Below are positions 33,141 to 43,371 of a DNA stretch of 64,000 nt, one piece after another (position 1 is the first letter of the stretch; each line of letters opens with the position of its first letter). A program made the translations under genes and the position numbers. Source of the stretch: Candidatus Woesebacteria bacterium RIFCSPHIGHO2_02_FULL_42_20 (lineage in GTDB: Bacteria > Patescibacteriota > Microgenomatia > UBA8517); assembly GCA_001792535.1 (NCBI GenBank), contig MGGS01000018.1, forward strand, positions 3,432 to 67,431. Direction: 5' to 3'. The notes beneath the pieces are model-generated. The model was not told the origin of the DNA. It saw nothing but the letters and a program-made list of their open reading frames with translations, and did not search any database.

Positions 33141-33602
33141 CTAATTTTCAACTACCAATGTCCCTGTCATTGAAGGATGCGGTGTGCAGTGGTAAGCGTA
33201 TTCGCTCTCGGCACTTGGTGCCGTAAATATGACCGACTCGCCTTTGTTTAGCAGTTTGGTGCCAAACGAACTGCCATCATTTGCCGTCATTGTGTGCGCC
33301 GCCGTGTCCCGATTAACTACAGTCACTTTTGCCCCGGGTTTAACCTTAAAAGTTTTGGGCGAAAACGCAAAGTTTTTTATTTCAATTGTAATTTCATCAA
33401 CAGCCCCCTGTGAACTTAGATCACTTTCTTTCAGAGTTTCTGTGTTATCTATTGCTATTTTATCTTCTTCCAAACGAGGACCTTCATTAAAGGGAAAATT
33501 TACCGGTGTAGGTACCGGAGTCACATTACCGCCCCGGACTACGACAAACCCAATTACTACTACAATGACTACCACAACACTCAGCAAAAAACCTTTATTC
33601 AT
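33141..33602 (-). CDS. cupredoxin (plastocyanin/amicyanin-like blue copper protein), membrane-anchored
   Basis: N-terminal TM; type-1 copper ligand pattern AAHTM ... YHCTPHPSMTG (His, Cys-x-x-His-x-x-Met). Confidence 0.7.
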   Translation of the reverse strand: MNKGFLLSVVVVIVVVIGFVVVRGGNVTPVPTPVNFPFNEGPRLEEDKIAIDNTETLKESDLSSQGAVDEITIEIKNFAFSPKTFKVKPGAKVTVVNRDTAAHTMTANDGSSFGTKLLNKGESVIFTAPSAESEYAYHCTPHPSMTGTLVVEN

Positions 33603-33652
33603 AGGCCAAATTAAATCTACGCTTTTTTGTTTAAAAAAGCAATTGAGACTGC

Positions 33653-34117
33653 TTACTTTTTCAACCCTTGTTCCGTGTATTTTTGAAGGAATTTTCTATA
33701 GAGGTCGTTTGTGGTCACAATGCCCACCAGTTTGCCACCTTCACCCACCACGGGGAGCCTTCTCACATTGTGGATCAGTAACATCGAGCAAGCTTTTAGC
33801 ACGTGATCTTCGGGGGCAACGGTATAAACCTTCTTTGTCATCAGCTGACTTGCACTTAGTCTGTTTATTTTTTTTGCTTCCGTTTCTATTACATCCAAAC
33901 TCAGGTAATAATCAATGTCGCGATAAAATTCTTTAATCGAAGGGAAAAGGTGGATAAGTAAGTCTTTCTCGGAAATCACGCCGACCAGCCGCTTTTTTGA
34001 ATTTACCACAGGGACGCCGGATATTTTGTTTTTGATAAGAACTCGGAGGACTTTACGGAAACCGTCTTTACTGTTAACGGTATAGATCCGCTTGACCATC
34101 ACCTCTTTGACCAGCAT
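33653..34117 (-). CDS. CBS-domain pair protein
   Basis: Two CBS motifs (GVPVV...; RRLPVV...GIVT). Confidence 0.8.
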   Translation of the reverse strand: MLVKEVMVKRIYTVNSKDGFRKVLRVLIKNKISGVPVVNSKKRLVGVISEKDLLIHLFPSIKEFYRDIDYYLSLDVIETEAKKINRLSASQLMTKKVYTVAPEDHVLKACSMLLIHNVRRLPVVGEGGKLVGIVTTNDLYRKFLQKYTEQGLKK

Positions 34118-34153
34118 CCTATAAACCTATTGTAACACAGGAAGTAAAGCAGC

Positions 34154-35940
<1,787 letters not shown>

Positions 35941-36789
35941 TTAACTCATTACCTCCATTGCCCGCGTAACGTCGGCGATTTCGTCCGTTATTGCCTGCTG
36001 CCTAACTTCGTTATAGACAAGCGTGAGTGCCTGTGAAAGATTCTGGGCGTTCTCAGACGCGCTTTTCATTGCCAACATCCGGGCCGAATGCTCGGATGCC
36101 TCGGATTCCAGAAACGCTTCCCTAAGCTGCACTTCCAAATAAAAGGGTAACATTGTCTCTAAAACCTGCTTGGCTCCAGGCTCAAAGAGGTAGACCAACG
36201 ACCCGGCATATTGGCTTGCCACATTATCGCGGGATACGGGCAGAAGTTTTTTTAGAGTTGGTTTTTGCATCAAGGCATTTATAAAGTCGGAATAGATAAC
36301 ATAGACTTCGCAAACAGTGTCTTTCCGGAATTCATCCAAGACCAGTGAAATAACTGCAGAGAGGCAAGCTTCTTTAGTCAAATCCGAAAAATCAGCCAAG
36401 AGCTGGCCGTTAAGTATAGCGAAGGATCGGGACTTTTTGCCAACCGTGATAAACAGTCTCTCCTCTTTGGCCGTATCATTCGTATCCGCCAAAACCTTCC
36501 TGAAAAGGTTGGTATTCAAGCTTCCGCAAAGGCCCCTATTCGTCGATACCAAAACATAGAGCTTCTTTTTACCTTTGCCTCTTTCAAAAAGATCAATTTT
36601 TTCCCCCTCGGCTTTTCCTGACAATTGACTGACCAATTCGTAAACTTTCATCGCGTAGGGCTTGCCCGCTTTAGCCTTGCTTTGGGAAGAGCGGACTTTA
36701 GACGCAGAAACCATTTCCAAAGCCTTGGTAATTTTTCTGATATTTTTAACCGACTGTATTCTTTTTCTTATTAACCTTGGGTTTTCCAT
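35941..36789 (-). CDS. atpG: F-type ATP synthase gamma subunit
   Basis: Operon position; gamma-like N-terminal [21 protein letters not shown] and C-terminal helices. Confidence 0.85.
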
Positions 36790-38225
36790 ATTTTTTCTTT
36801 AAATTCGGCAATTGCCTCATCCAAATCTTTTTTAGTTCCGTCGCTAAACTCCCCGGAGTCGGCAATGTCACGCACTATCTTGGATTTCCTGTCGGTAATA
36901 AACTGCATGAACGACTCTTGAAACACAATGATTTTATCTATAGCGATGTCGTCCAAACTGCCGCTTGTGACCGTGTACAAAATGACAACCTGGTGTTCCA
37001 CCGGGATCGGCGCATATTGAGGCTGTTTTAAAATTTCAATTATTCTTTTCCCCCGCTCTATCTTTTCCCGGGTGGAAGGGTCCAGGTCCGACGAGAATTG
37101 CGCAAACGTGGCAAGTTCATAATATTGAGAAAGGTCAAGCCTAAGTTTACCGGCAACTTTCTTCATGGCTGATCTTTGAGCAGCCCCGCCGACCCTGGAC
37201 ACGGAAAGGCCCACATTCAAAGCCGGCCGTACACCCGCAAAGAAAAGGTCATTTTCAAGGTAAATCTGCCCGTCCGTTATCGAAATTACATTTGTGGGAA
37301 TAAATGCAGACACATCTCCGGATTGTGTTTCGATAATTGGAAGCGCCGTCAAAGAGCCGCCGCCCAAAGCCTTTGAAAGTTTGCAAGACCGCTCAAGTAA
37401 GCGGCTGTGAAGGTAAAAAACGTCTCCCGGATATGCCTCACGGCCTGTGGGGCGCCGGAGCAGCAACGACAACTCACGATAAGCCCAAGCGTGCTTTGTC
37501 AAATCGTCATACACCACAAGAACATCATTGCCTTTTTCCATGAAAAATTCCCCCATTGCAGTACCCACATAAGGAGCCAGATAGCGTAGTGAAGCGGGGT
37601 CTGAAGCCGAAGCCAAAACAACAATCGTATTTTTGAGGACTCCAAATTCGTCTAACTTTTCAATGACCGACGCGACTTTTGACCGCTTCTGACCAATTGC
37701 TACATACAGGCAAATTACCCCCGTGGCCTTCTGATTGATTATTGTGTCAATGGCAATTGCAGTTTTACCCACTCCCCGGTCACCAATAATCAGCTCCCTT
37801 TGCCCCCGGCCAATTGGAATCATTGCATCAACGGCTTTTATGCCTGTCTGCAGTGGTGTCGAAACTTTTGACCTGTCCACTATCCCGGCAGCAACCCTTT
37901 CAACAGCCATATATTTTTCAGGTTTGATATCAGCCTTGCCGTCCAACGGGTTGCCGAGAGCGTCGACCACCCTCCCAAGGAAATCTTTACCCGAAGGCAC
38001 AGCATAAAGCTTTCCGGTAGTTGTAACTTTGTCGCCAACATTCAAGGTCGCCCAGTCTCCCAAGATGACAGCCCCTACCCTGCTTTCCTCCAGGTGCATC
38101 GCTAGCCCCACCAGCCCGTTTTCAAACTTCAAAACCTCGCCGTACATGGCGGTTTCGAGCCCGTCCAAAAACGCCACTCCGTCTTTTAGAGAAATTATTT
38201 TCCCTTCGCTTTTTATTTCGACCAT
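36771..38225 (-). CDS. atpA: F-type ATP synthase alpha subunit
   Basis: [22 protein letters not shown]-loop. Confidence 0.95.
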
Positions 38226-38452
38226 ATTTCCTTTTCTATTTTGCCCGACAAGCTCAAGTCCAAGACTATAGAGCCGACTTTGGCCTTAAAACCTCCCAGT
38301 ATCGCCGAGTCCGTCTCCTGGACAAAGGAGGCCTTGCCGGAAACTAAAGACTTGCTTACAAGAAAATCTCCTATTTTTTTTGCCAAAGCACCAAAGTCCC
38401 CATCCCTTAATTTAAGGGGAGTAACTACTATAACCTTTGTTATTTTGTCCAT
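38213..38452 (-). CDS. atpH: F-type ATP synthase delta (OSCP) subunit, C-terminal domain only (79 aa)
   Basis: [29 protein letters not shown] aligns with the delta C-terminus; no room for the N-terminal domain between atpF and atpA. Confidence 0.5.
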
Positions 38453-38453
38453 C

Positions 38454-38942
38454 TTAAGATTTAAGCTCTTTTGCCACCAAGGCTATACTTTTAAGTCGTG
38501 TTTTATCGTCCAATACGCGAGCGAGCACGTGATTAATAACTTCTTGGCTAAGTTTTTTCGAACTTTCTTTGACTTTCCGTTCCACTAATTTTGCCTGACG
38601 GTCTAACTCTCCTTGGCCTTTGGCAATTAGTGCTCTTGCCTTTTTATTACCCTCCTCGGTGGCTTCGTTTTTAATTTTTTGAGCCTCAAGTCTGGCGGCA
38701 TTTACTATGTTATTTGCGTCAGACCTTGCGGCTTTGAGTACTTTCTCTTTTGTGCTTTCAAACACTTCCTGTTTACGGGCCAATTCACCCATTGCGGTTT
38801 CGACACCGGCAAGTTTTTCCTCACGGGACTTCATGGCCTTCAATATGGGCTTGTAGAGAACTTTTTTAAGAATGACAAACAAAATAATAAAGTTAATTAT
38901 CTGCACTCCAAGCAAAAAAGGATCAATACCTAATTTTTCCAT
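38454..38942 (-). CDS. atpF: F-type ATP synthase subunit b
   Basis: Single N-terminal TM then a long charged coiled coil; operon position. Confidence 0.75.
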   Translation of the reverse strand: MEKLGIDPFLLGVQIINFIILFVILKKVLYKPILKAMKSREEKLAGVETAMGELARKQEVFESTKEKVLKAARSDANNIVNAARLEAQKIKNEATEEGNKKARALIAKGQGELDRQAKLVERKVKESSKKLSQEVINHVLARVLDDKTRLKSIALVAKELKS

Positions 38943-38953
38943 AGTAGTTTAAA

Positions 38954-39916
<963 letters not shown>

Positions 39917-39920
<4 letters not shown>

Positions 39921-40159
39921 TTTTTGGTTAATACTTTGCCTGCAATTTTAATAGCCCTTATGAAACCTACCACCACACCAAGTACTATACCGACGAGGGT
40001 GAAAGCGGGGCCTGTATCAAGTTTGCTATCCAAAATGACGCCTGACAAGAGAAATATTATAGGGAAAAACACAAGAGACACGCTAATGGACGAGGCTTCG
40101 TTAAGCAATTTGAAAGTGTTTTTAAAATCAGCTTTGTTTTTTTGCATATCCTCGTACAA
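39917..40159 (-). CDS. AtpZ/AtpI-like small membrane protein
   Basis: 80 aa with two TM helices; first gene of the atp operon, 4-nt overlap with atpB. Confidence 0.4.
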
Positions 40160-40227
40160 AAAAAATCGGCAATCTATGCCGATTGCAACTAATTGTAGCC
40201 TCGAGGCTCTTTCAAGTCAACACGAAT

Positions 40228-40620
40228 TTAAACAACTTTTTCAAATTTTCCATCTAAATGCAGATAATATAAATATACCGAAAGATCGGGATACTTTGCT
40301 AATACAACTGACCTTGCTTTAACTAAATCCTGACTGTGCCTTTGGGGCGTACTCTCCTTGCCGTATGCTCCACAATCCTCATGGTGAATTAAATAAGCTT
40401 CCTTAATCTGATGCAGCCTGACCGAGACAGCTATCTGTTTTAAAACAGTCGCCAAATCTTTTGTCGCGCCGGCAAAGCCGACTAAATCAAAAGTCTTTCC
40501 GACAAGTCTCTCGTTGGTAAACTCGCGGATAAATTTTTGAAATCGAAAGTCAATACAACAAACAACCAAGGCGTCACACGTATGAATCATATTCACAATT
40601 ATATTCCAAAACTCTAACAA
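40228..40620 (-). CDS. beta-carbonic-anhydrase-like miniprotein
   Basis: CCIDFRF (CxDxR) and HHEDCGAY (HxxCG) zinc-ligand motifs with correct spacing, but only 130 aa. Confidence 0.35.
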   Translation of the reverse strand: MLEFWNIIVNMIHTCDALVVCCIDFRFQKFIREFTNERLVGKTFDLVGFAGATKDLATVLKQIAVSVRLHQIKEAYLIHHEDCGAYGKESTPQRHSQDLVKARSVVLAKYPDLSVYLYYLHLDGKFEKVV

Positions 40621-40744
40621 AATCCTGACTAAAGGCGGGTATACAAAGGCCTCGTGGCCCAGTTGCTTTTAATAATTTCCGGATCGTCCAAACCAAGGTG
40701 TAAGGACACACCCAGGCCGGATGAATTCACAACTTTCTGATATC

Positions 40745-42076
40745 TTACAGCTTGATATACCGAGCCCCCGTGAGTGAAGTCGCGTGTCCTGGACCAAATC
40801 TCTCTGAACTAACGAACAATCTCATTCGTATATCATCCGGGTTCTTTTGCATTTTAGTTACAATTTGATTTAAGAGACCGTCATCGCCCTGCCTATATGT
40901 AGCCAACAAAGCTTCTAATCCAGTTAAACCTTTTAAAAAAGACAGATTTGAAAAACTAACCAATGGTCTTCTCTTGGACCAGATACTAAACAATCCGTCT
41001 TCATTACCTCTAATCGATTTTCGAAGTAATCCCAGACCAGATTTAATACCTATAGATAAATGGGGGTCAGAAACTAAAGTACCATCCAAACTTTCAAGCC
41101 CCAAAAACCCGACTGTCGTGGGAGAACCGGTAACAACTCTCTGTCTCCATAAATAGTCTGCCTCCCCAGTCTTGAGGCTTGAAACAAGATTTGCCAATCT
41201 AAAACACCTTGGGAAAACACGAGCAGTCGTCAAATCCGAAGCCAGTCCAAGTACATTCCCAAACCCATTCCTACCAACCTGATCAAAATCTAGTAAATCC
41301 TCGGGCGTGAACTCGGCGTGTCTTGATTCGAGAGCCAAAAATGAACTCATTACATCGGAAATTTTATCCGGGTGACTAAGTAACCAAGCAGCTTTAGTCC
41401 CGAGGACAACAGTTAAAGCCTTTGGATCCTGACTTATCAAGTCTTCTATCAAGCCATCGTGCCCAATCATAAGTGCAAATTCGAGAACAAAATTTCTGAA
41501 GACCAATGTCTCGGCAGTCTCCCTATCAATACAAAGAGATGTGTAAAGATTTTCTTGGCCAGCAACAAAGCCCTCAACTGCTTTCATAACCAAGTCCAAA
41601 CCACTCTCACCTCTATCTGCATTCAGGCGATCTCGGATTTGTTGACCAATTGACAGATCGGCCAGTCCCTGTAAAACAATTCTTGGCGAGAGAGTATGCT
41701 GATTTCTGGCCGGATAAATGCCGCCTGCGACAAAGTCCACAACTGCAGCTGCTTGACTAAACCAAGCCATCTCCGGATGAGCTTTAATTACAAGATCTAA
41801 ACCCGGCTCGGCGCTAAACATGGGTTCTGGTTTATCATTACCAAAACCCACCATATATACCCCATCCACAATCTCAATTTCGGGAATCGCCTTTTTGCCA
41901 ACACCCAAATATGCCAGACGCCTAAATTGGCTTGATGGTAAAACCAGACCCGATCCAGCCGAAGATACACCTATAGAATGCAAATACTCCTCATCAGGGA
42001 TAATAGCATTATAGGCCGCAATATCGCCATTAACATGATCAACTATTCTTCTTGTTTCTAGTTCATTAATAGCCAT
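40745..42076 (-). CDS. conserved hypothetical cytoplasmic protein (about 443 aa), no recognised motifs
   Basis: Long clean ORF; start set at MAINELE because the upstream extension overlaps the divergent regulator gene. Confidence 0.4.
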   Translation of the reverse strand: MAINELETRRIVDHVNGDIAAYNAIIPDEEYLHSIGVSSAGSGLVLPSSQFRRLAYLGVGKKAIPEIEIVDGVYMVGFGNDKPEPMFSAEPGLDLVIKAHPEMAWFSQAAAVVDFVAGGIYPARNQHTLSPRIVLQGLADLSIGQQIRDRLNADRGESGLDLVMKAVEGFVAGQENLYTSLCIDRETAETLVFRNFVLEFALMIGHDGLIEDLISQDPKALTVVLGTKAAWLLSHPDKISDVMSSFLALESRHAEFTPEDLLDFDQVGRNGFGNVLGLASDLTTARVFPRCFRLANLVSSLKTGEADYLWRQRVVTGSPTTVGFLGLESLDGTLVSDPHLSIGIKSGLGLLRKSIRGNEDGLFSIWSKRRPLVSFSNLSFLKGLTGLEALLATYRQGDDGLLNQIVTKMQKNPDDIRMRLFVSSERFGPGHATSLTGARYIKL

Positions 42077-42122
42077 GAATAATACCGATAGTGTATAATA
42101 AAGATATCTAAAAATAAAGTTC

Positions 42123-43052
42123 ATGAAAAATTCGCTTGAGCCGGTAATCTGCATGAAAAGAGATTTTGAAGCACTCCGATTCATCCTGGATAAAATCAAA
42201 ATCAAAGAACCCGCTTGTGTCTTGACTGTTAGCGGCAACGGGAAGGACATTATTTACGAAACACTGATTAAAAGATTAGAGAAACTAAAAAAAGATACGC
42301 CGCTTCTTAACATTTCAGCGACCACCGAAGAAGAACTAAATAAATTTATAGGCAAGATAAAATCTCAAACATTGCCTCTTATCTCCATTATTAATCTTTC
42401 CATCGGCAAGGACGTCTCATGGTTTTTTGATGATCTCGAAGCCCTAAGAAGAAAAAATGGAACAGCCTTCAACTATATTGTAATCACTTACTTCAAAGAT
42501 GTGGCGAATGCGTACGGACAAAAACATAAGGCTCTCATGAGGTCAATTAAAATCCTTGATAATGTCACTTTTAATGACGCGGAGAAGTTTATCAAAGACT
42601 TATCGAGAAGATTTTCCTACAAGTTAACTGCTGACGAGATCCGTAAAATTTACGGATTGAGCGATGGGCATGTCGGCCTAATCAAGTCACTTTACATGTG
42701 CGTACGAAAGGGCGAACCCTTGGATAAAAAGATTTGGGTAGAGCCATCAATCGAGTCGCGTCTACAAGCAATCCGCGAAGATAAAAAAACTTATTCTTCA
42801 AAAGAAAAAAAAGACTACGTCTTTAGCTCTAAGGAAAGAGTTGTATTCAATGTATTAGAGTTAGGTGTAGGAAAAGTTATTGAAAGAAGCGAAATAGCCG
42901 AAAGAGTTTGGGGAAACAGTTGGGAAGAAAACTATTCGGATTGGGCAATTGATCAAATAATTCACAGACTTAGGGGCAAAATCAGAAAAAATAAATTAGC
43001 CTACAAAATACTTACTAATAAAGGACTCGGGTTTACTCTACTTAAAAAGTAA
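42123..43052 (+). CDS. transcriptional regulator with C-terminal OmpR/PhoB-type winged helix and an N-terminal degenerate P-loop-like domain
   Basis: C-terminus ERVVFNVLELGVGKVIERSEIAERVWGNSWEENYSDWAIDQIIHRLRGKIRK...LTNKGLGFTL is trans_reg_C-like; N-terminus has VSGNGKD instead of a receiver domain. Confidence 0.5.
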   Translation: MKNSLEPVICMKRDFEALRFILDKIKIKEPACVLTVSGNGKDIIYETLIKRLEKLKKDTPLLNISATTEEELNKFIGKIKSQTLPLISIINLSIGKDVSWFFDDLEALRRKNGTAFNYIVITYFKDVANAYGQKHKALMRSIKILDNVTFNDAEKFIKDLSRRFSYKLTADEIRKIYGLSDGHVGLIKSLYMCVRKGEPLDKKIWVEPSIESRLQAIREDKKTYSSKEKKDYVFSSKERVVFNVLELGVGKVIERSEIAERVWGNSWEENYSDWAIDQIIHRLRGKIRKNKLAYKILTNKGLGFTLLKK

Positions 43053-43116: not shown

Positions 43117-43371
43117 ATGAGAAAGGGGGTGGACAAAAGGCTTTTAAGGGACATCAGAAATGCCATTTCCCAAAAAGCCCTGGACATGAAGGTCAGTACA
43201 ACCTGGTTTAAATATTTATCAAAATCAAAACACGGCTACAAGTTTCTCGTTAATAGACAAAAACAGATAACGACCTTAAGGGAAATACTTGAGTCTGTTT
43301 CTAAAAAACAACCAAATCTTTCAAAAGGCCAAATATCAGAGGCTATTTCAAAAGTAGTAAACAATTTCTAA
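43117..43371 (+). CDS. small basic hypothetical protein
   Basis: 84-aa ORF following the regulator. Confidence 0.3.
   Translation: MRKGVDKRLLRDIRNAISQKALDMKVSTTWFKYLSKSKHGYKFLVNRQKQITTLREILESVSKKQPNLSKGQISEAISKVVNNF

What the first reader, a model, noticed from the sequence alone, without database searches (positions are those of the whole stretch)
40745..43052. Unknown 443-aa protein divergently paired with an atypical wHTH regulator
The minus-strand ORF (start at MAINELE) is long and clean, but I cannot match it to any family; it has no P-loop, Rossmann or metal-ligand cluster. Divergently and overlapping its upstream region is a 309-aa protein. That protein's last 70 residues are a textbook OmpR/PhoB winged helix (ERVWG...IDQIIHRLRGKI...GFTL). 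Its N-terminal 220 residues are not a receiver domain and carry a degenerate P-loop-like VSGNGKD. The architecture (an NTPase-like sensor with a C-terminal wHTH, next to a single unknown target gene) is unusual for a small genome.
Basis: inference. Interest (0 to 1): 0.55.

Follow-up and report, generated by a model that had tools for sequence, protein, structure and literature searches.

The report
Truncated orphan gene with paired regulator
The "unknown 443-aa protein" is a deletion-truncated copy of a 533-aa protein from a fast-evolving family known only from Woesebacteria-type ultra-small bacteria, which always sits back-to-back with an unusual DNA-binding regulator and may carry a very divergent alarmone-synthetase-like domain.

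Summary
Both ORFs are at the stated coordinates. The window comes from a Candidatus Woesebacteria (CPR/Microgenomates) genome. B (42123..43052, 309 aa) has a genuine OmpR-type winged helix at residues 234-306. It has no receiver domain. Its N-domain carries a degenerate P-loop and gives only sub-threshold STAND/AAA hits.

A (40745..42076) matches no Pfam, NCBIfam, PADLOC or PDB entry, but it is not intact. Sister genomes that are 100% identical over 7 kb encode a 533-aa protein. The window lacks 154 nt between two copies of a 14-nt direct repeat. That removes residues 428-474 and leaves the conserved last 59 codons out of frame (40629..40808).

The A family is rare. All 10 lineages found carry B divergently upstream, separated by 28-80 bp. 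Pro_CA_2 usually follows A, and a small conserved gene often follows B. A diverges much faster than its neighbours. A second species carries an independent nonsense allele in the same C-terminal domain.

Structure models of the intact allele, motif order and weak profile matches suggest that this C-terminal domain is RelA/SpoT-like. No sequence search confirms it.

The pairing is supported. Regulation of A by B is inferred from the arrangement. The biochemical function of A is not established.

The parts
40745..42076 (-). Gene A, truncated allele (443 aa). Residues 1-427 are identical to the intact 533-aa allele P0016. Residues 428-443 are out-of-frame sequence. The model shows a helical core at about residues 90-335 and the start of an alpha/beta domain from about residue 340.
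40795..40808 (-). Deletion junction. This is the single remaining copy of the 14-nt direct repeat ttcagagagatttg. The intact allele has two copies, 154 nt apart start to start.
   Evidence: two 100%-identity blastn blocks whose query ends overlap by 14 nt; 154 nt extra in L039/L040
40629..40808 (-). Out-of-frame (-1) remnant of A's conserved C-terminus. It holds 59 codons, FREIWSRT...NWATRPLYTRL, plus the ancestral stop TAG at 40631..40629.
   Evidence: hmmsearch of the family C-terminal profile against this frame, E 2.5e-10; identical to P0016 residues 475-533
42077..42122 (.). 46-bp divergent intergenic region. ATAGTGTATAAT (42088..42099) occurs once in the 64-kb window and is conserved next to A's start codon in orthologous loci. 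A promoter-like site on the + strand has its -35 at 42070-42075 and its -10 TATAAT at 42094-42099. On the A strand the same bases read TACACT, a -10-like hexamer.
42123..43052 (+). Gene B, 309 aa. It has an N-terminal domain of about 220 aa with a degenerate P-loop and a C-terminal OmpR-type winged helix. The first ATG is preferred as the start because homologues conserve the MK.S.P.L.M.RD leader.
42228..42248 (+). Degenerate Walker-A-like stretch VSGNGKD (B residues 36-42).
42822..43040 (+). Trans_reg_C winged helix-turn-helix (B residues 234-306).
   Evidence: PF00486, E 2.1e-9; SaeR, WalR and PcoR DNA-binding domains
43117..43371 (+). Gene C, 84 aa, function unknown. It is conserved immediately downstream of B in L001 (83 aa) and as the N-terminal part of 175-177-aa proteins in L003, L007 and L017.
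   Evidence: blastp E 3e-19 to 4e-6; no Pfam hit
40228..40590 (-). Pro_CA_2 (beta-carbonic-anhydrase-like, 120 aa counted from the ATG at 40590; the ORF as listed starts at TTG 40620). It contains CxDxR and HxxC motifs. It lies 38 nt downstream of A's ancestral stop codon, on the same strand, and is followed by the ATP synthase operon.
   Evidence: (PF20393, E 2.3e-13, 50.9 bits against a 30-bit cut-off)

Best explanation
The locus is a lineage-specific gene module of Woesebacteria and related Microgenomates.

Shown:
- Gene A and a small beta-carbonic-anhydrase-like gene (Pro_CA_2) run leftwards. Gene B and a small gene C run rightwards. They start from a 46-bp region that carries a conserved ATAGTGTATAAT element.
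- B is a transcription-factor-type protein with an OmpR-type winged helix at its C-terminus. Its N-terminal domain is derived from a P-loop NTPase but has lost the catalytic signature.
- In this strain A is broken. Slippage between two 14-nt direct repeats removed 154 nt. This deleted residues 428-474 and put the conserved last 59 codons out of frame. The 443-aa ORF is therefore a truncated allele of a 533-aa protein.
- Truncated and intact alleles coexist in the same population.
- An independent nonsense allele exists in another species.

Inferred:
- The conserved element reads as overlapping, back-to-back -10 boxes for the two directions.
- B binds the shared promoter region and controls A-Pro_CA_2 and itself.
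- Intact A consists of an all-helical N-terminal part of about 330 aa and a C-terminal alpha/beta domain of about 200 aa with a RelA/SpoT-like (RSH) nucleotidyltransferase fold.
- The recurring truncations indicate that A's C-terminal domain is dispensable or costly.
For: Truncation:
- The window and L039/L040 are 100% identical apart from 154 nt, and the junction shows a 14-nt overlap.
- The intact allele P0016 is 533 aa. The 443-aa allele P0015 is recorded on 21 contigs, including several NCBI Woesebacteria genomes.
- The out-of-frame remnant matches the family's C-terminal profile at E 2.5e-10.
- Its stop codon restores the usual 38-46-nt spacing to Pro_CA_2.

Family and pairing:
- An exhaustive phmmer search of 1.84 billion representatives found only four relatives.
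- hhalign links the two subtypes with 93.7% probability.
- A divergent B gene is present in the window, L001, L002/L008, L003, L007, L009, L010, L017, L042 and L043, which is 10 of 10 lineages.
- Pro_CA_2 lies downstream of A in 6 lineages.
- Gene C lies downstream of B in 5 lineages.

B:
- Trans_reg_C matches above threshold.
- The SGNGKD and LSGGHVGLIKSLY motifs are conserved.
- NB-ARC, AAA_22, nSTAND5 and nSTAND6 give sub-threshold hits on the same stretch.

Cis element:
- It is conserved next to A's start codon in loci whose B proteins are only 31-53% identical.
- It is unique in the window.
- A promoter-like site matches 10 of 12 positions.

RSH-like domain:
- The AF2 model of P0016 has pLDDT 67.6 and pTM 0.73. 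Its C-terminal order is beta, helices, beta(DDIRMRLFV), alpha, beta, alpha, beta, beta, alpha.
- In Foldseek against BFVD, rank 1 is a phage 'RelA/SpoT' protein and rank 3 is 'Tas1' (probability 0.84, TMt 0.40).
- In Foldseek against PDB, RelA, an exported small alarmone synthetase and three FaRel2 chains are among the top 50.
- The best local hhalign match puts the family's Y...E.QI strands on RSH YxSxH/ExQIRT. The score is 20.3, and 0 of 60 column-permuted nulls reach it. The subtype-2 profile on its own picks PKG..L..LQ.AL against GRxK..SI..K.
- The Lys and Asp at the corresponding positions are invariant.

Second truncation: L002 and L008 are 99.9% identical, and a GAA>TAA change sits at A codon 396.
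Against: - No sequence method sees RSH homology. There is no RelA_SpoT Pfam hit at E<=1 in 10 family members. No RSH chain appears in HMMER profile searches of the PDB. The hhalign probability is only 1.5%, and the global hhalign alignment falls out of register.
- All Foldseek E-values are above 0.5 and TM-scores are at most 0.40.
- The models rest on a 7-sequence alignment.
- The window's subtype has Ser or Gln in place of the RSH catalytic Glu.
- There are about 55 residues between motif 1 and motif 2, against about 15 in known RSH proteins.
- B's DNA target is untested.
- All loci come from one CPR group, so shared ancestry could account for part of the synteny.
- The truncated protein might still work through its helical part.
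- No structure prediction was run for B.
Confidence: 0.6

Rival explanations
1. First reader's view. The 443-aa ORF is an intact, functional protein of a new fold, and it is the single target of the divergent NTPase-like wHTH sensor.
For: - The ORF is open.
- NCBI annotates it as a 443-aa hypothetical protein in several genomes.
- This allele is the commoner one in assemblies, with 21 contigs against 2-3.
- Its helical core (residues 90-305) is modelled at pLDDT 70-89 and could work alone.
Against: - The intact 533-aa allele has 100% identical flanks.
- The family-conserved C-terminus lies out of frame.
- All other family members are 467-580 aa and have that C-terminus.
- The module has more conserved members than one target gene.
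Confidence: 0.1
2. A is the effector of a conflict or toxin-type system: a toxSAS-, Tas1- or CapRel-like nucleotide pyrophosphokinase with a fused helical sensor or inhibitor domain. B is its dedicated repressor. Knock-out alleles spread because the effector is costly.
For: - The closest fold matches are Tas1 and FaRel2-type RSH proteins.
- A is 21-29% identical between genome pairs whose B is 33-50%, Pro_CA_2 63-72% and atpB 47-70% identical.
- The A and B trees are incongruent, which suggests allele replacement.
- Two independent truncating alleles exist, plus a further 55-aa deletion allele.
- Polymorphism clusters in the module.
Against: - PADLOC gives no hit.
- The genes are divergent rather than co-transcribed as in toxin-antitoxin pairs.
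- No mobile-element context is seen. The module sits in conserved housekeeping synteny next to the ATP synthase operon.
- The window's subtype lacks the catalytic Glu.
- The RSH assignment itself is uncertain.
Confidence: 0.17
3. A and B are neighbours only by shared descent within Microgenomates and are not functionally coupled. B regulates other genes, for example gene C or the ATP synthase / K+ uptake neighbourhood.
For: - All loci come from one CPR group.
- The ATP synthase operon and Kup are also repeatedly nearby.
- More distant B homologues (L013, L016) have no detectable A neighbour. In L015 the arrangement differs and the 547-aa neighbour is not detectably A-like.
Against: - The head-to-head arrangement with a 28-80-bp spacer is kept in 10 of 10 lineages, while the rest of the neighbourhood is rearranged. 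The ATP synthase operon lies on either side, and Pro_CA_2 is present or absent.
- A conserved element sits in the spacer.
- Protein divergence is deep, with A down to about 15-20% identity.
Confidence: 0.12
4. The frameshift is bypassed. Either it is a sequencing error, or programmed -1 ribosomal frameshifting within the 22-codon overlap gives a protein of about 486 aa that has the conserved C-terminus but lacks residues 428-474.
For: - The -1 frame remnant is fully open for 59 codons.
- A run of five G lies in the overlap window.
Against: - The lesion is a 154-nt deletion between direct repeats, not a homopolymer indel.
- It recurs in many independent assemblies.
- Read by eye, the overlap contains no X XXY YYZ slippery heptamer.
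- An open remnant is expected anyway for a very recent deletion, because the flanks show 0 mismatches in 7 kb.
- The deleted segment contains a predicted core strand and helix.
Confidence: 0.03

Closest known systems
OmpR/PhoB-family response regulators (Trans_reg_C, PF00486), including atypical or orphan members
   Same: B's C-terminal 73 residues match Trans_reg_C above the Pfam threshold. They align to the SaeR, WalR, PcoR and CovR DNA-binding domains. The DNA-binding domain sits at the C-terminus, as in these proteins.
   Different: B has no receiver domain and no phospho-acceptor Asp context. Its N-terminal 220 residues are about twice the length of a receiver domain and carry a P-loop-like motif.
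STAND / AAA+ NTPase transcription regulators (the MalT type has the NTPase followed by a C-terminal HTH; AfsR/SARP proteins combine an OmpR-type wHTH with NB-ARC)
   Same: The domain logic is the same: a P-loop-type module fused to a DNA-binding domain. There are sub-threshold hits to NB-ARC, AAA_22, nSTAND5 and nSTAND6 at the P-loop stretch. The GG-containing motif LSGGHVGLIKSLY recalls the helical lid motif of these NTPases; this resemblance is from memory.
   Different: - B is only about 220 aa in this part and has no TPR or other sensor repeats.
- Walker A lacks Ser/Thr, and its Lys is not conserved.
- Walker B Asp is replaced by Asn.
- The wHTH is C-terminal, whereas it is N-terminal in SARP/AfsR proteins.
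- No model reaches its Pfam threshold.
RelA/SpoT homologue (RSH) superfamily: small alarmone synthetases, Tas1, toxSAS (FaRel2, CapRel), and the N-terminal half of long RSH proteins
   Same: - The predicted strand/helix order of A's C-terminal domain matches the RSH order.
- The motifs are collinear: PKG..L..LQK with GRxK..SI..K; D....R-hydrophobic strand with DxxGxR; an aromatic strand with YxSxH; E.QI...NW.SR.Y with ExQIRT...W....YK.
- RSH proteins are the top-ranked Foldseek matches in two libraries.
- A helical region precedes the domain, as in long RSH proteins.
   Different: - Pfam/HMMER does not detect the similarity, and hhalign gives less than 2% probability.
- About 55 residues containing three helices are inserted between motifs 1 and 2.
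- There is an extra helix before the last two strands.
- The catalytic Glu is replaced by Ser or Gln in the window's subtype.
- No HD signature is seen in the helical part.
Pro_CA_2 (PF20393) beta-carbonic-anhydrase-like small proteins
   Same: The gene downstream of A matches PF20393 above threshold and has CxDxR and HxxC motifs.
   Different: It is a neighbour of the finding and not the finding itself. Its link to A is positional only, seen in 6 lineages.

Membership tests
OmpR/PhoB response regulator | C-terminal winged helix-turn-helix (Trans_reg_C) | tested here: met
   PF00486 matches residues 234-306 at E 2.1e-9 and 37.8 bits, above the 26.2-bit cut-off. PDB hits include SaeR at 5e-5 and WalR.
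OmpR/PhoB response regulator | N-terminal receiver (REC) domain with a phospho-acceptor aspartate | tested here: not met
   There is no Response_reg hit at E<=1. NCBIfam response-regulator models align only to residues about 215-306. The N-domain is about 220 aa and has a P-loop-like motif.
STAND / AAA+ P-loop NTPase | Walker A motif GxxxxGK[ST] | tested here: not met
   The window has SGNGKD. Homologues have SGFGVK, EGMGIS, SGNGIT, ISNGKG and DMGKR. The Lys is not invariant and Ser/Thr is absent.
STAND / AAA+ P-loop NTPase | Walker B motif hhhhD[DE] | tested here: not met
   The corresponding strand reads (I/V/L)xxNxS, for example SIINLS.
STAND / AAA+ P-loop NTPase | Significant profile or fold match to an NTPase domain | tested here: inconclusive
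   Hits are NB-ARC at 0.019, AAA_22 at 0.039, nSTAND_NTPase5 at 0.046 and nSTAND6 at 0.11. All lie on the same stretch and all are below threshold. The PDB profile search returned only designed Rossmann or P-loop proteins.
RSH (RelA/SpoT homologue) synthetase domain | Match to the RelA_SpoT sequence profile (PF04607) or to RSH sequences | tested here: not met
   No hit at E<=1 in 10 family members. No RSH chain appears in PDB profile searches. An own RSH HMM finds nothing. The hhalign probability is 1.5%.
RSH (RelA/SpoT homologue) synthetase domain | RSH fold (five-stranded mixed sheet with the characteristic strand/helix order) | tested here: inconclusive
   The AF2 topology fits. RSH proteins rank 1 and 3 in BFVD (Tas1 probability 0.84, TMt 0.40), and five are in the PDB top 50. 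All E-values are above 0.5. The domain could not be searched on its own.
RSH (RelA/SpoT homologue) synthetase domain | Catalytic residues: Lys of GRxK, Asp of DxxGxR, Glu of ExQIRT | tested here: inconclusive
   The Lys and Asp equivalents are invariant in 8 of 8 sequences. The Glu is present in L001, L003, P0014 and L017 but is Ser or Gln in the window's subtype. These equivalences rest on a weak alignment.
toxSAS toxin-antitoxin module | Toxin and antitoxin co-transcribed as an adjacent pair | tested here: not met
   A and B are divergent in all 10 lineages. PADLOC gives no hit.
toxSAS toxin-antitoxin module | Growth inhibition that is neutralised by the partner | not testable with these tools
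   This needs expression experiments.
Pro_CA_2 (neighbour gene) | PF20393 profile match plus Cys/His/Cys metal ligands | tested here: met
   E 2.3e-13 and 50.9 bits against a 30-bit cut-off. CCIDFR and HHEDCG are present in the sequence.

The most novel reading that the evidence does not exclude
The A family is a previously unrecognised, extremely divergent branch of the RelA/SpoT superfamily, confined to Microgenomates (CPR). It would consist of a helical, pseudo-hydrolase-like part followed by a synthetase-like domain. Subtype 2 keeps the catalytic Glu and makes an alarmone-type nucleotide, or pyrophosphorylates a target. Subtype 1 has lost the Glu. The module would be controlled by a dedicated regulator whose degenerate P-loop domain senses a nucleotide. 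Recurrent knock-out alleles within populations would show that the activity is costly, as for conflict or toxin-type effectors.
Probability: 0.22. Interest if true: 0.72.

Novelty: new variant of a known kind. Interest (0 to 1): 0.5.

Why it matters
CPR bacteria have tiny genomes in which a large share of genes have no assigned function, and very little is known about how they regulate genes or signal stress.

This locus gives a concrete, testable module. It contains a regulator with a new architecture: a pseudo-NTPase domain fused to a C-terminal OmpR-type winged helix. That regulator is strictly paired with an orphan family that may be a cryptic RelA/SpoT relative.

If the RSH reading holds, it would extend alarmone or toxSAS-type chemistry into a lineage where profile searches do not find it. 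It would also give an example of natural on/off alleles of such an enzyme within one population.

There is also a practical lesson. An open 443-codon ORF in a metagenome-assembled genome was in fact a recent deletion allele. This was detectable only by comparing sister strains and by reading the other frames.

Tried and rejected
1. Pfam, NCBIfam, PADLOC and PDB-sequence searches of A and nine homologues gave nothing above noise. The isolated hits (RVP_2, HisKA, Phosphodiest, NsnC) appear in single members and are inconsistent with each other.
2. A word-indexed homologue search with A, alone and as an 8-sequence profile, found only A itself and one other member. The exhaustive phmmer search was needed.
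3. Foldseek of the truncated model against the PDB gave only noise, such as IDO1, complex I and transporters.
4. A CCDC47 hit (E 1e-4) and Cmr4 hits (E 0.015) with C-terminal profiles were judged spurious. They are short, compositionally driven, and not reproduced between the two profiles.
7. The 547-aa convergent neighbour of B in L015 (Daviesbacteria) was tested as an A homologue and gave no HMM hit.
8. A global hhalign of the A C-terminus against RSH does not keep the motif register. A full-length A profile against the E. coli RelA N-terminal half scores 20.4 at 0.6% probability. It aligns the PKG motif with GRPK and the family motif N.L....D.......P with ANRLG...ED...RYLHP, but this is not significant.
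9. Dyad symmetry in the window's 46-bp spacer: no inverted repeat was found. There is only a 16-nt tandem direct repeat at 75% identity, which may be chance. L001 and L002 have CCTATA...TATAGG arms that the window lacks.
10. Literature searches for PF20393 and for CPR plus ppGpp returned nothing relevant.
Full report
**What is at the coordinates**

The minus-strand ORF that begins MAINELE runs 40745..42076 (443 aa). Its longest form is 501 aa and reaches 42250. The plus-strand ORF runs 42123..43052 (309 aa). The two start codons are 46 bp apart.

The surrounding genes are an F-type ATP synthase operon on the minus strand downstream of A, an RRM protein and a sortase. Exact database matches carry names from the Rifle aquifer: ACD_52C00024G0008/9, Candidatus Woesebacteria bacterium RBG_16_41_13 and others. 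The window is therefore from a Woesebacteria genome (Microgenomates, CPR).

**Gene B**

- Pfam Trans_reg_C matches residues 234-306 at E 2.1e-9, above the gathering score. No receiver domain is found.
- NCBIfam response-regulator models and PDB DNA-binding domains (SaeR, WalR, PcoR, CovR) align only to the C-terminal part.
- In an alignment of nine homologues the N-domain shows a partly conserved SGNGKD stretch. Its Lys is not invariant and it has no Ser/Thr. There is a hydrophobic strand ending in N-x-S where Walker B would lie, and a strongly conserved LSGGHVGLIKSLY motif.
- Four different P-loop NTPase Pfam models (NB-ARC, AAA_22, nSTAND_NTPase5, nSTAND6) align their N-terminal P-loop region to this same stretch in four different homologues. 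All are below threshold, at E 0.02-0.1. A PDB profile search gave only designed Rossmann or P-loop proteins.
- I read this as a domain derived from a P-loop NTPase that has lost the hydrolysis signature.
- The first ATG (42123) is the likelier start. Homologues conserve the leader MK.S.P.L.M.RD. A related strain has a 30-nt deletion between the repeats TTCATGAAAA and TGCATGAAAA that fuses the two ATGs.

**Gene A is a deletion allele**

A has no hit in Pfam, NCBIfam, PADLOC or PDB sequences. Homologues found by exhaustive phmmer are 513-555 aa and share a C-terminal motif that the 443-aa ORF lacks.

I translated the other frames downstream of the last conserved motif. In the -1 frame there is an open stretch of 59 codons, FREIWSRT...IIKSNWATRPLYTRL. 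It matches the family's C-terminal profile at E 2.5e-10. It ends at a TAG at 40631..40629.

The 90%-identity cluster of A contains a 533-aa member, P0016 (OGM68296.1). It is identical to A up to ...VSSERF, then has 47 further residues, and then exactly this 59-residue tail.

The loci that encode P0016 (L039, L040) are 100% identical to the window over more than 7 kb, apart from 154 extra nt. The two alignment blocks overlap by 14 nt (ttcagagagatttg, window 40795..40808). This is the signature of a deletion between short direct repeats.

The 443-aa allele is recorded on 21 contigs, including several NCBI Woesebacteria genomes. The intact allele is on 2-3 contigs. The deletion is therefore a real polymorphism that segregates in the population and not a single assembly error.

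Another member of the cluster, P0023, carries a different internal deletion of 55 aa.

**The family and its partners**

The locus neighbours of B's homologues are unknown proteins of 395-515 aa. BLASTP does not match them to A, although they match each other. hhalign joins the two groups with 93.7% probability over 318 columns. HMMs built from one group detect the other.

Counting distinct lineages (window, L001, L002/L008, L003, L007, L009, L010, L017, L042, L043), every A-family gene has a B-family gene divergently upstream, 28-80 bp away.

Pro_CA_2 follows A after 38-46 nt in six of these lineages. A small gene C follows B in five. C is 84 aa in the window, at 43117..43371.

More distant B homologues in Levybacteria, Daviesbacteria and others lack a detectable A neighbour.

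The ATP synthase operon is often nearby. It lies on different sides and strands, so the A-B head-to-head pair is the invariant part.

**The spacer**

The 12-mer ATAGTGTATAAT (42088..42099) occurs once in the 64-kb window. Near-matches occur at the chance level.

The same element (CCTATAGTGTATAAT, TTATAGTGTAAAAT, CCTATAGTATAC) lies 0-9 nt from A's start codon in L001, L002/L008, L003, L009 and L010.

On B's strand it supplies a TATAAT -10 box, with TAGCCA 18 nt upstream (10 of 12 matches). On A's strand the same bases read TACACT or TATACT, 6-13 nt before the ATG. That would give a near-leaderless A transcript; this is an inference.

No dyad was found in the window's spacer. Binding of B at this element is the natural hypothesis but is untested.

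**What intact A might be**

AF2 with a 7-sequence alignment gave pLDDT 61 and pTM 0.68 for the truncated form. It gave pLDDT 67.6 and pTM 0.73 for P0016.

Residues about 90-335 are all-helical. Residues 340-533 form an alpha/beta domain: a strand, four helices, strand 416-422 (DDIRMRLFV), a helix, strand 441-449, helix 471-485, strands 490-500 and 507-514, and a final helix.

The deletion removes residues 428-474, which include most of one helix and one core strand. It also frameshifts the rest of the domain.

I had noted, from memory of RelQ and RelA, that the family's motifs resemble the RSH synthetase motifs and occur in the same order:
- PKG..L..LQK;
- D....R followed by a hydrophobic strand;
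- an aromatic strand;
- E.QI...NW.SR.Y.

I then tested this idea.
- Against it: there is no RelA_SpoT Pfam hit in ten members. No RSH chain appears in two PDB profile searches. An RSH HMM built from verified RelQ, RelA and Rel sequences finds nothing. The hhalign probability is 1.5%, and the global alignment slips out of register.
- For it, from profile comparison: the best local hhalign match is exactly the predicted register, YxSxH/ExQIRT. Its score of 20.3 is not reached by any of 60 column-permuted controls, whose maximum is 16.1. The subtype-2 profile alone picks the predicted PKG/GRxK pair, collinear with the first match.
- For it, from fold search: in Foldseek against BFVD, a phage 'RelA/SpoT' protein ranks first and a 'Tas1' protein ranks third (probability 0.84, TMt 0.40, 231 columns). 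Against the PDB, RelA, an exported small alarmone synthetase and three FaRel2 chains are in the top 50 of 350,542 chains. All of these have E above 1.
- Residue conservation: the Lys and Asp that would correspond to the ATP-binding Lys and the metal-binding Asp are invariant. The catalytic Glu is kept in subtype 2 and in L017. It is Ser or Gln in the window's subtype.

I put the RSH-like fold at roughly 0.6. I put enzymatic activity of any member well below that.

**Evolutionary behaviour**

Between the same genome pairs, A is 21-29% identical, B 33-50%, Pro_CA_2 63-72% and atpB 47-70%.

In neighbour-joining trees, the window's B groups with those of L001 and L008, but its A groups with those of L007, L009 and L010. 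The A genes of L001 and L008 group with that of L003. This hints at replacement of A alleles at a fixed locus. The data set is small and the evidence is weak.

In a second species, L002 and L008 differ at only 7 of 7,242 positions. One difference is a GAA>TAA nonsense codon at A codon 396, again cutting off the C-terminal domain. The other six lie in the spacer and the first 75 nt of B.

So the C-terminal domain of A has been truncated independently in two species. Polymorphism concentrates in this module.

**Verdict**

The 443-aa protein is a broken allele, and the module has four genes. B is a new architectural variant of an OmpR-type regulator. A belongs to a rare orphan family confined to Microgenomates, with a possible cryptic RelA/SpoT-like domain.

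Control of A by B and the biochemical activity of A are inferences.

Noticed in passing
window 42115..42159: The direct repeats TAAAGTTCATGAAAA and TAATCTGCATGAAAA lie 30 nt apart. A related strain (P0001, SRR3989344) lacks exactly these 30 nt, which removes B's first 10 codons or shortens the spacer. This is a second repeat-mediated deletion polymorphism in the same locus.
   Followed up: partly
cluster member P0023 (SRR3989344), corresponding to window A residues about 112-166: This is a third allele of A. It has an in-frame 55-residue deletion between the similar stretches AAAVVDFVAG and MKAVEGFVAG, on top of the 154-nt deletion.
   Followed up: no
L002:3031 versus L008 (A codon 396); L002:4243-4344: In another species, two assemblies are 99.9% identical and differ at 7 sites in 7.2 kb. 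One is a nonsense mutation that truncates A's C-terminal domain. The other six cluster in the A-B spacer and the first 75 nt of B.
   Followed up: yes
A and B proteins of window, L001, L003, L007, L008, L009, L010, L017: Neighbour-joining trees of A and B are incongruent. The window's B groups with L001/L008, but its A groups with L007/L009/L010. This suggests two deep A types exchanged at a fixed locus, or strong rate differences.
   Followed up: partly
window 43117..43371 (+): An 84-aa ORF downstream of B is conserved. L001 has an 83-aa version at 38% identity. In L003, L007 and L017 it forms the N-terminal half of 175-177-aa proteins. It has no Pfam hit and contains a W(F/L).Y....YKF motif.
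   Followed up: partly
window 40228..40620 (-): The Pro_CA_2 ORF is listed from a TTG at 40620 (130 aa). Orthologues and the annotation of L039 indicate the ATG at 40590 (120 aa). This protein is the best-conserved member of the neighbourhood, at 63-72% identity.
   Followed up: partly
window 33600..40160 (-): A complete F-type ATP synthase operon (atpI-like gene, then subunits a, c, b, delta, alpha, gamma, beta and so on) directly follows Pro_CA_2 on the same strand. No terminator-like site was found between 40400 and 43500, so read-through from A's promoter is possible.
   Followed up: no
L011, L014, L021, L028, L031, L038 record titles: Several MAG records with clear Microgenomates-type gene content are titled 'uncultured Gammaproteobacteria bacterium' or 'Candidatus Eisenbacteria'. 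These are probably mislabelled taxonomy in the TPA assemblies.
   Followed up: no
L018-L038; proteins P0007 and P0008 (L004-L006): Many other Microgenomates proteins share only B's wHTH with the signature EEKYSDWA. They have different, longer N-terminal regions (401-421 aa) and different neighbours. This suggests a lineage-specific expansion of receiver-less OmpR-type regulators.
   Followed up: no
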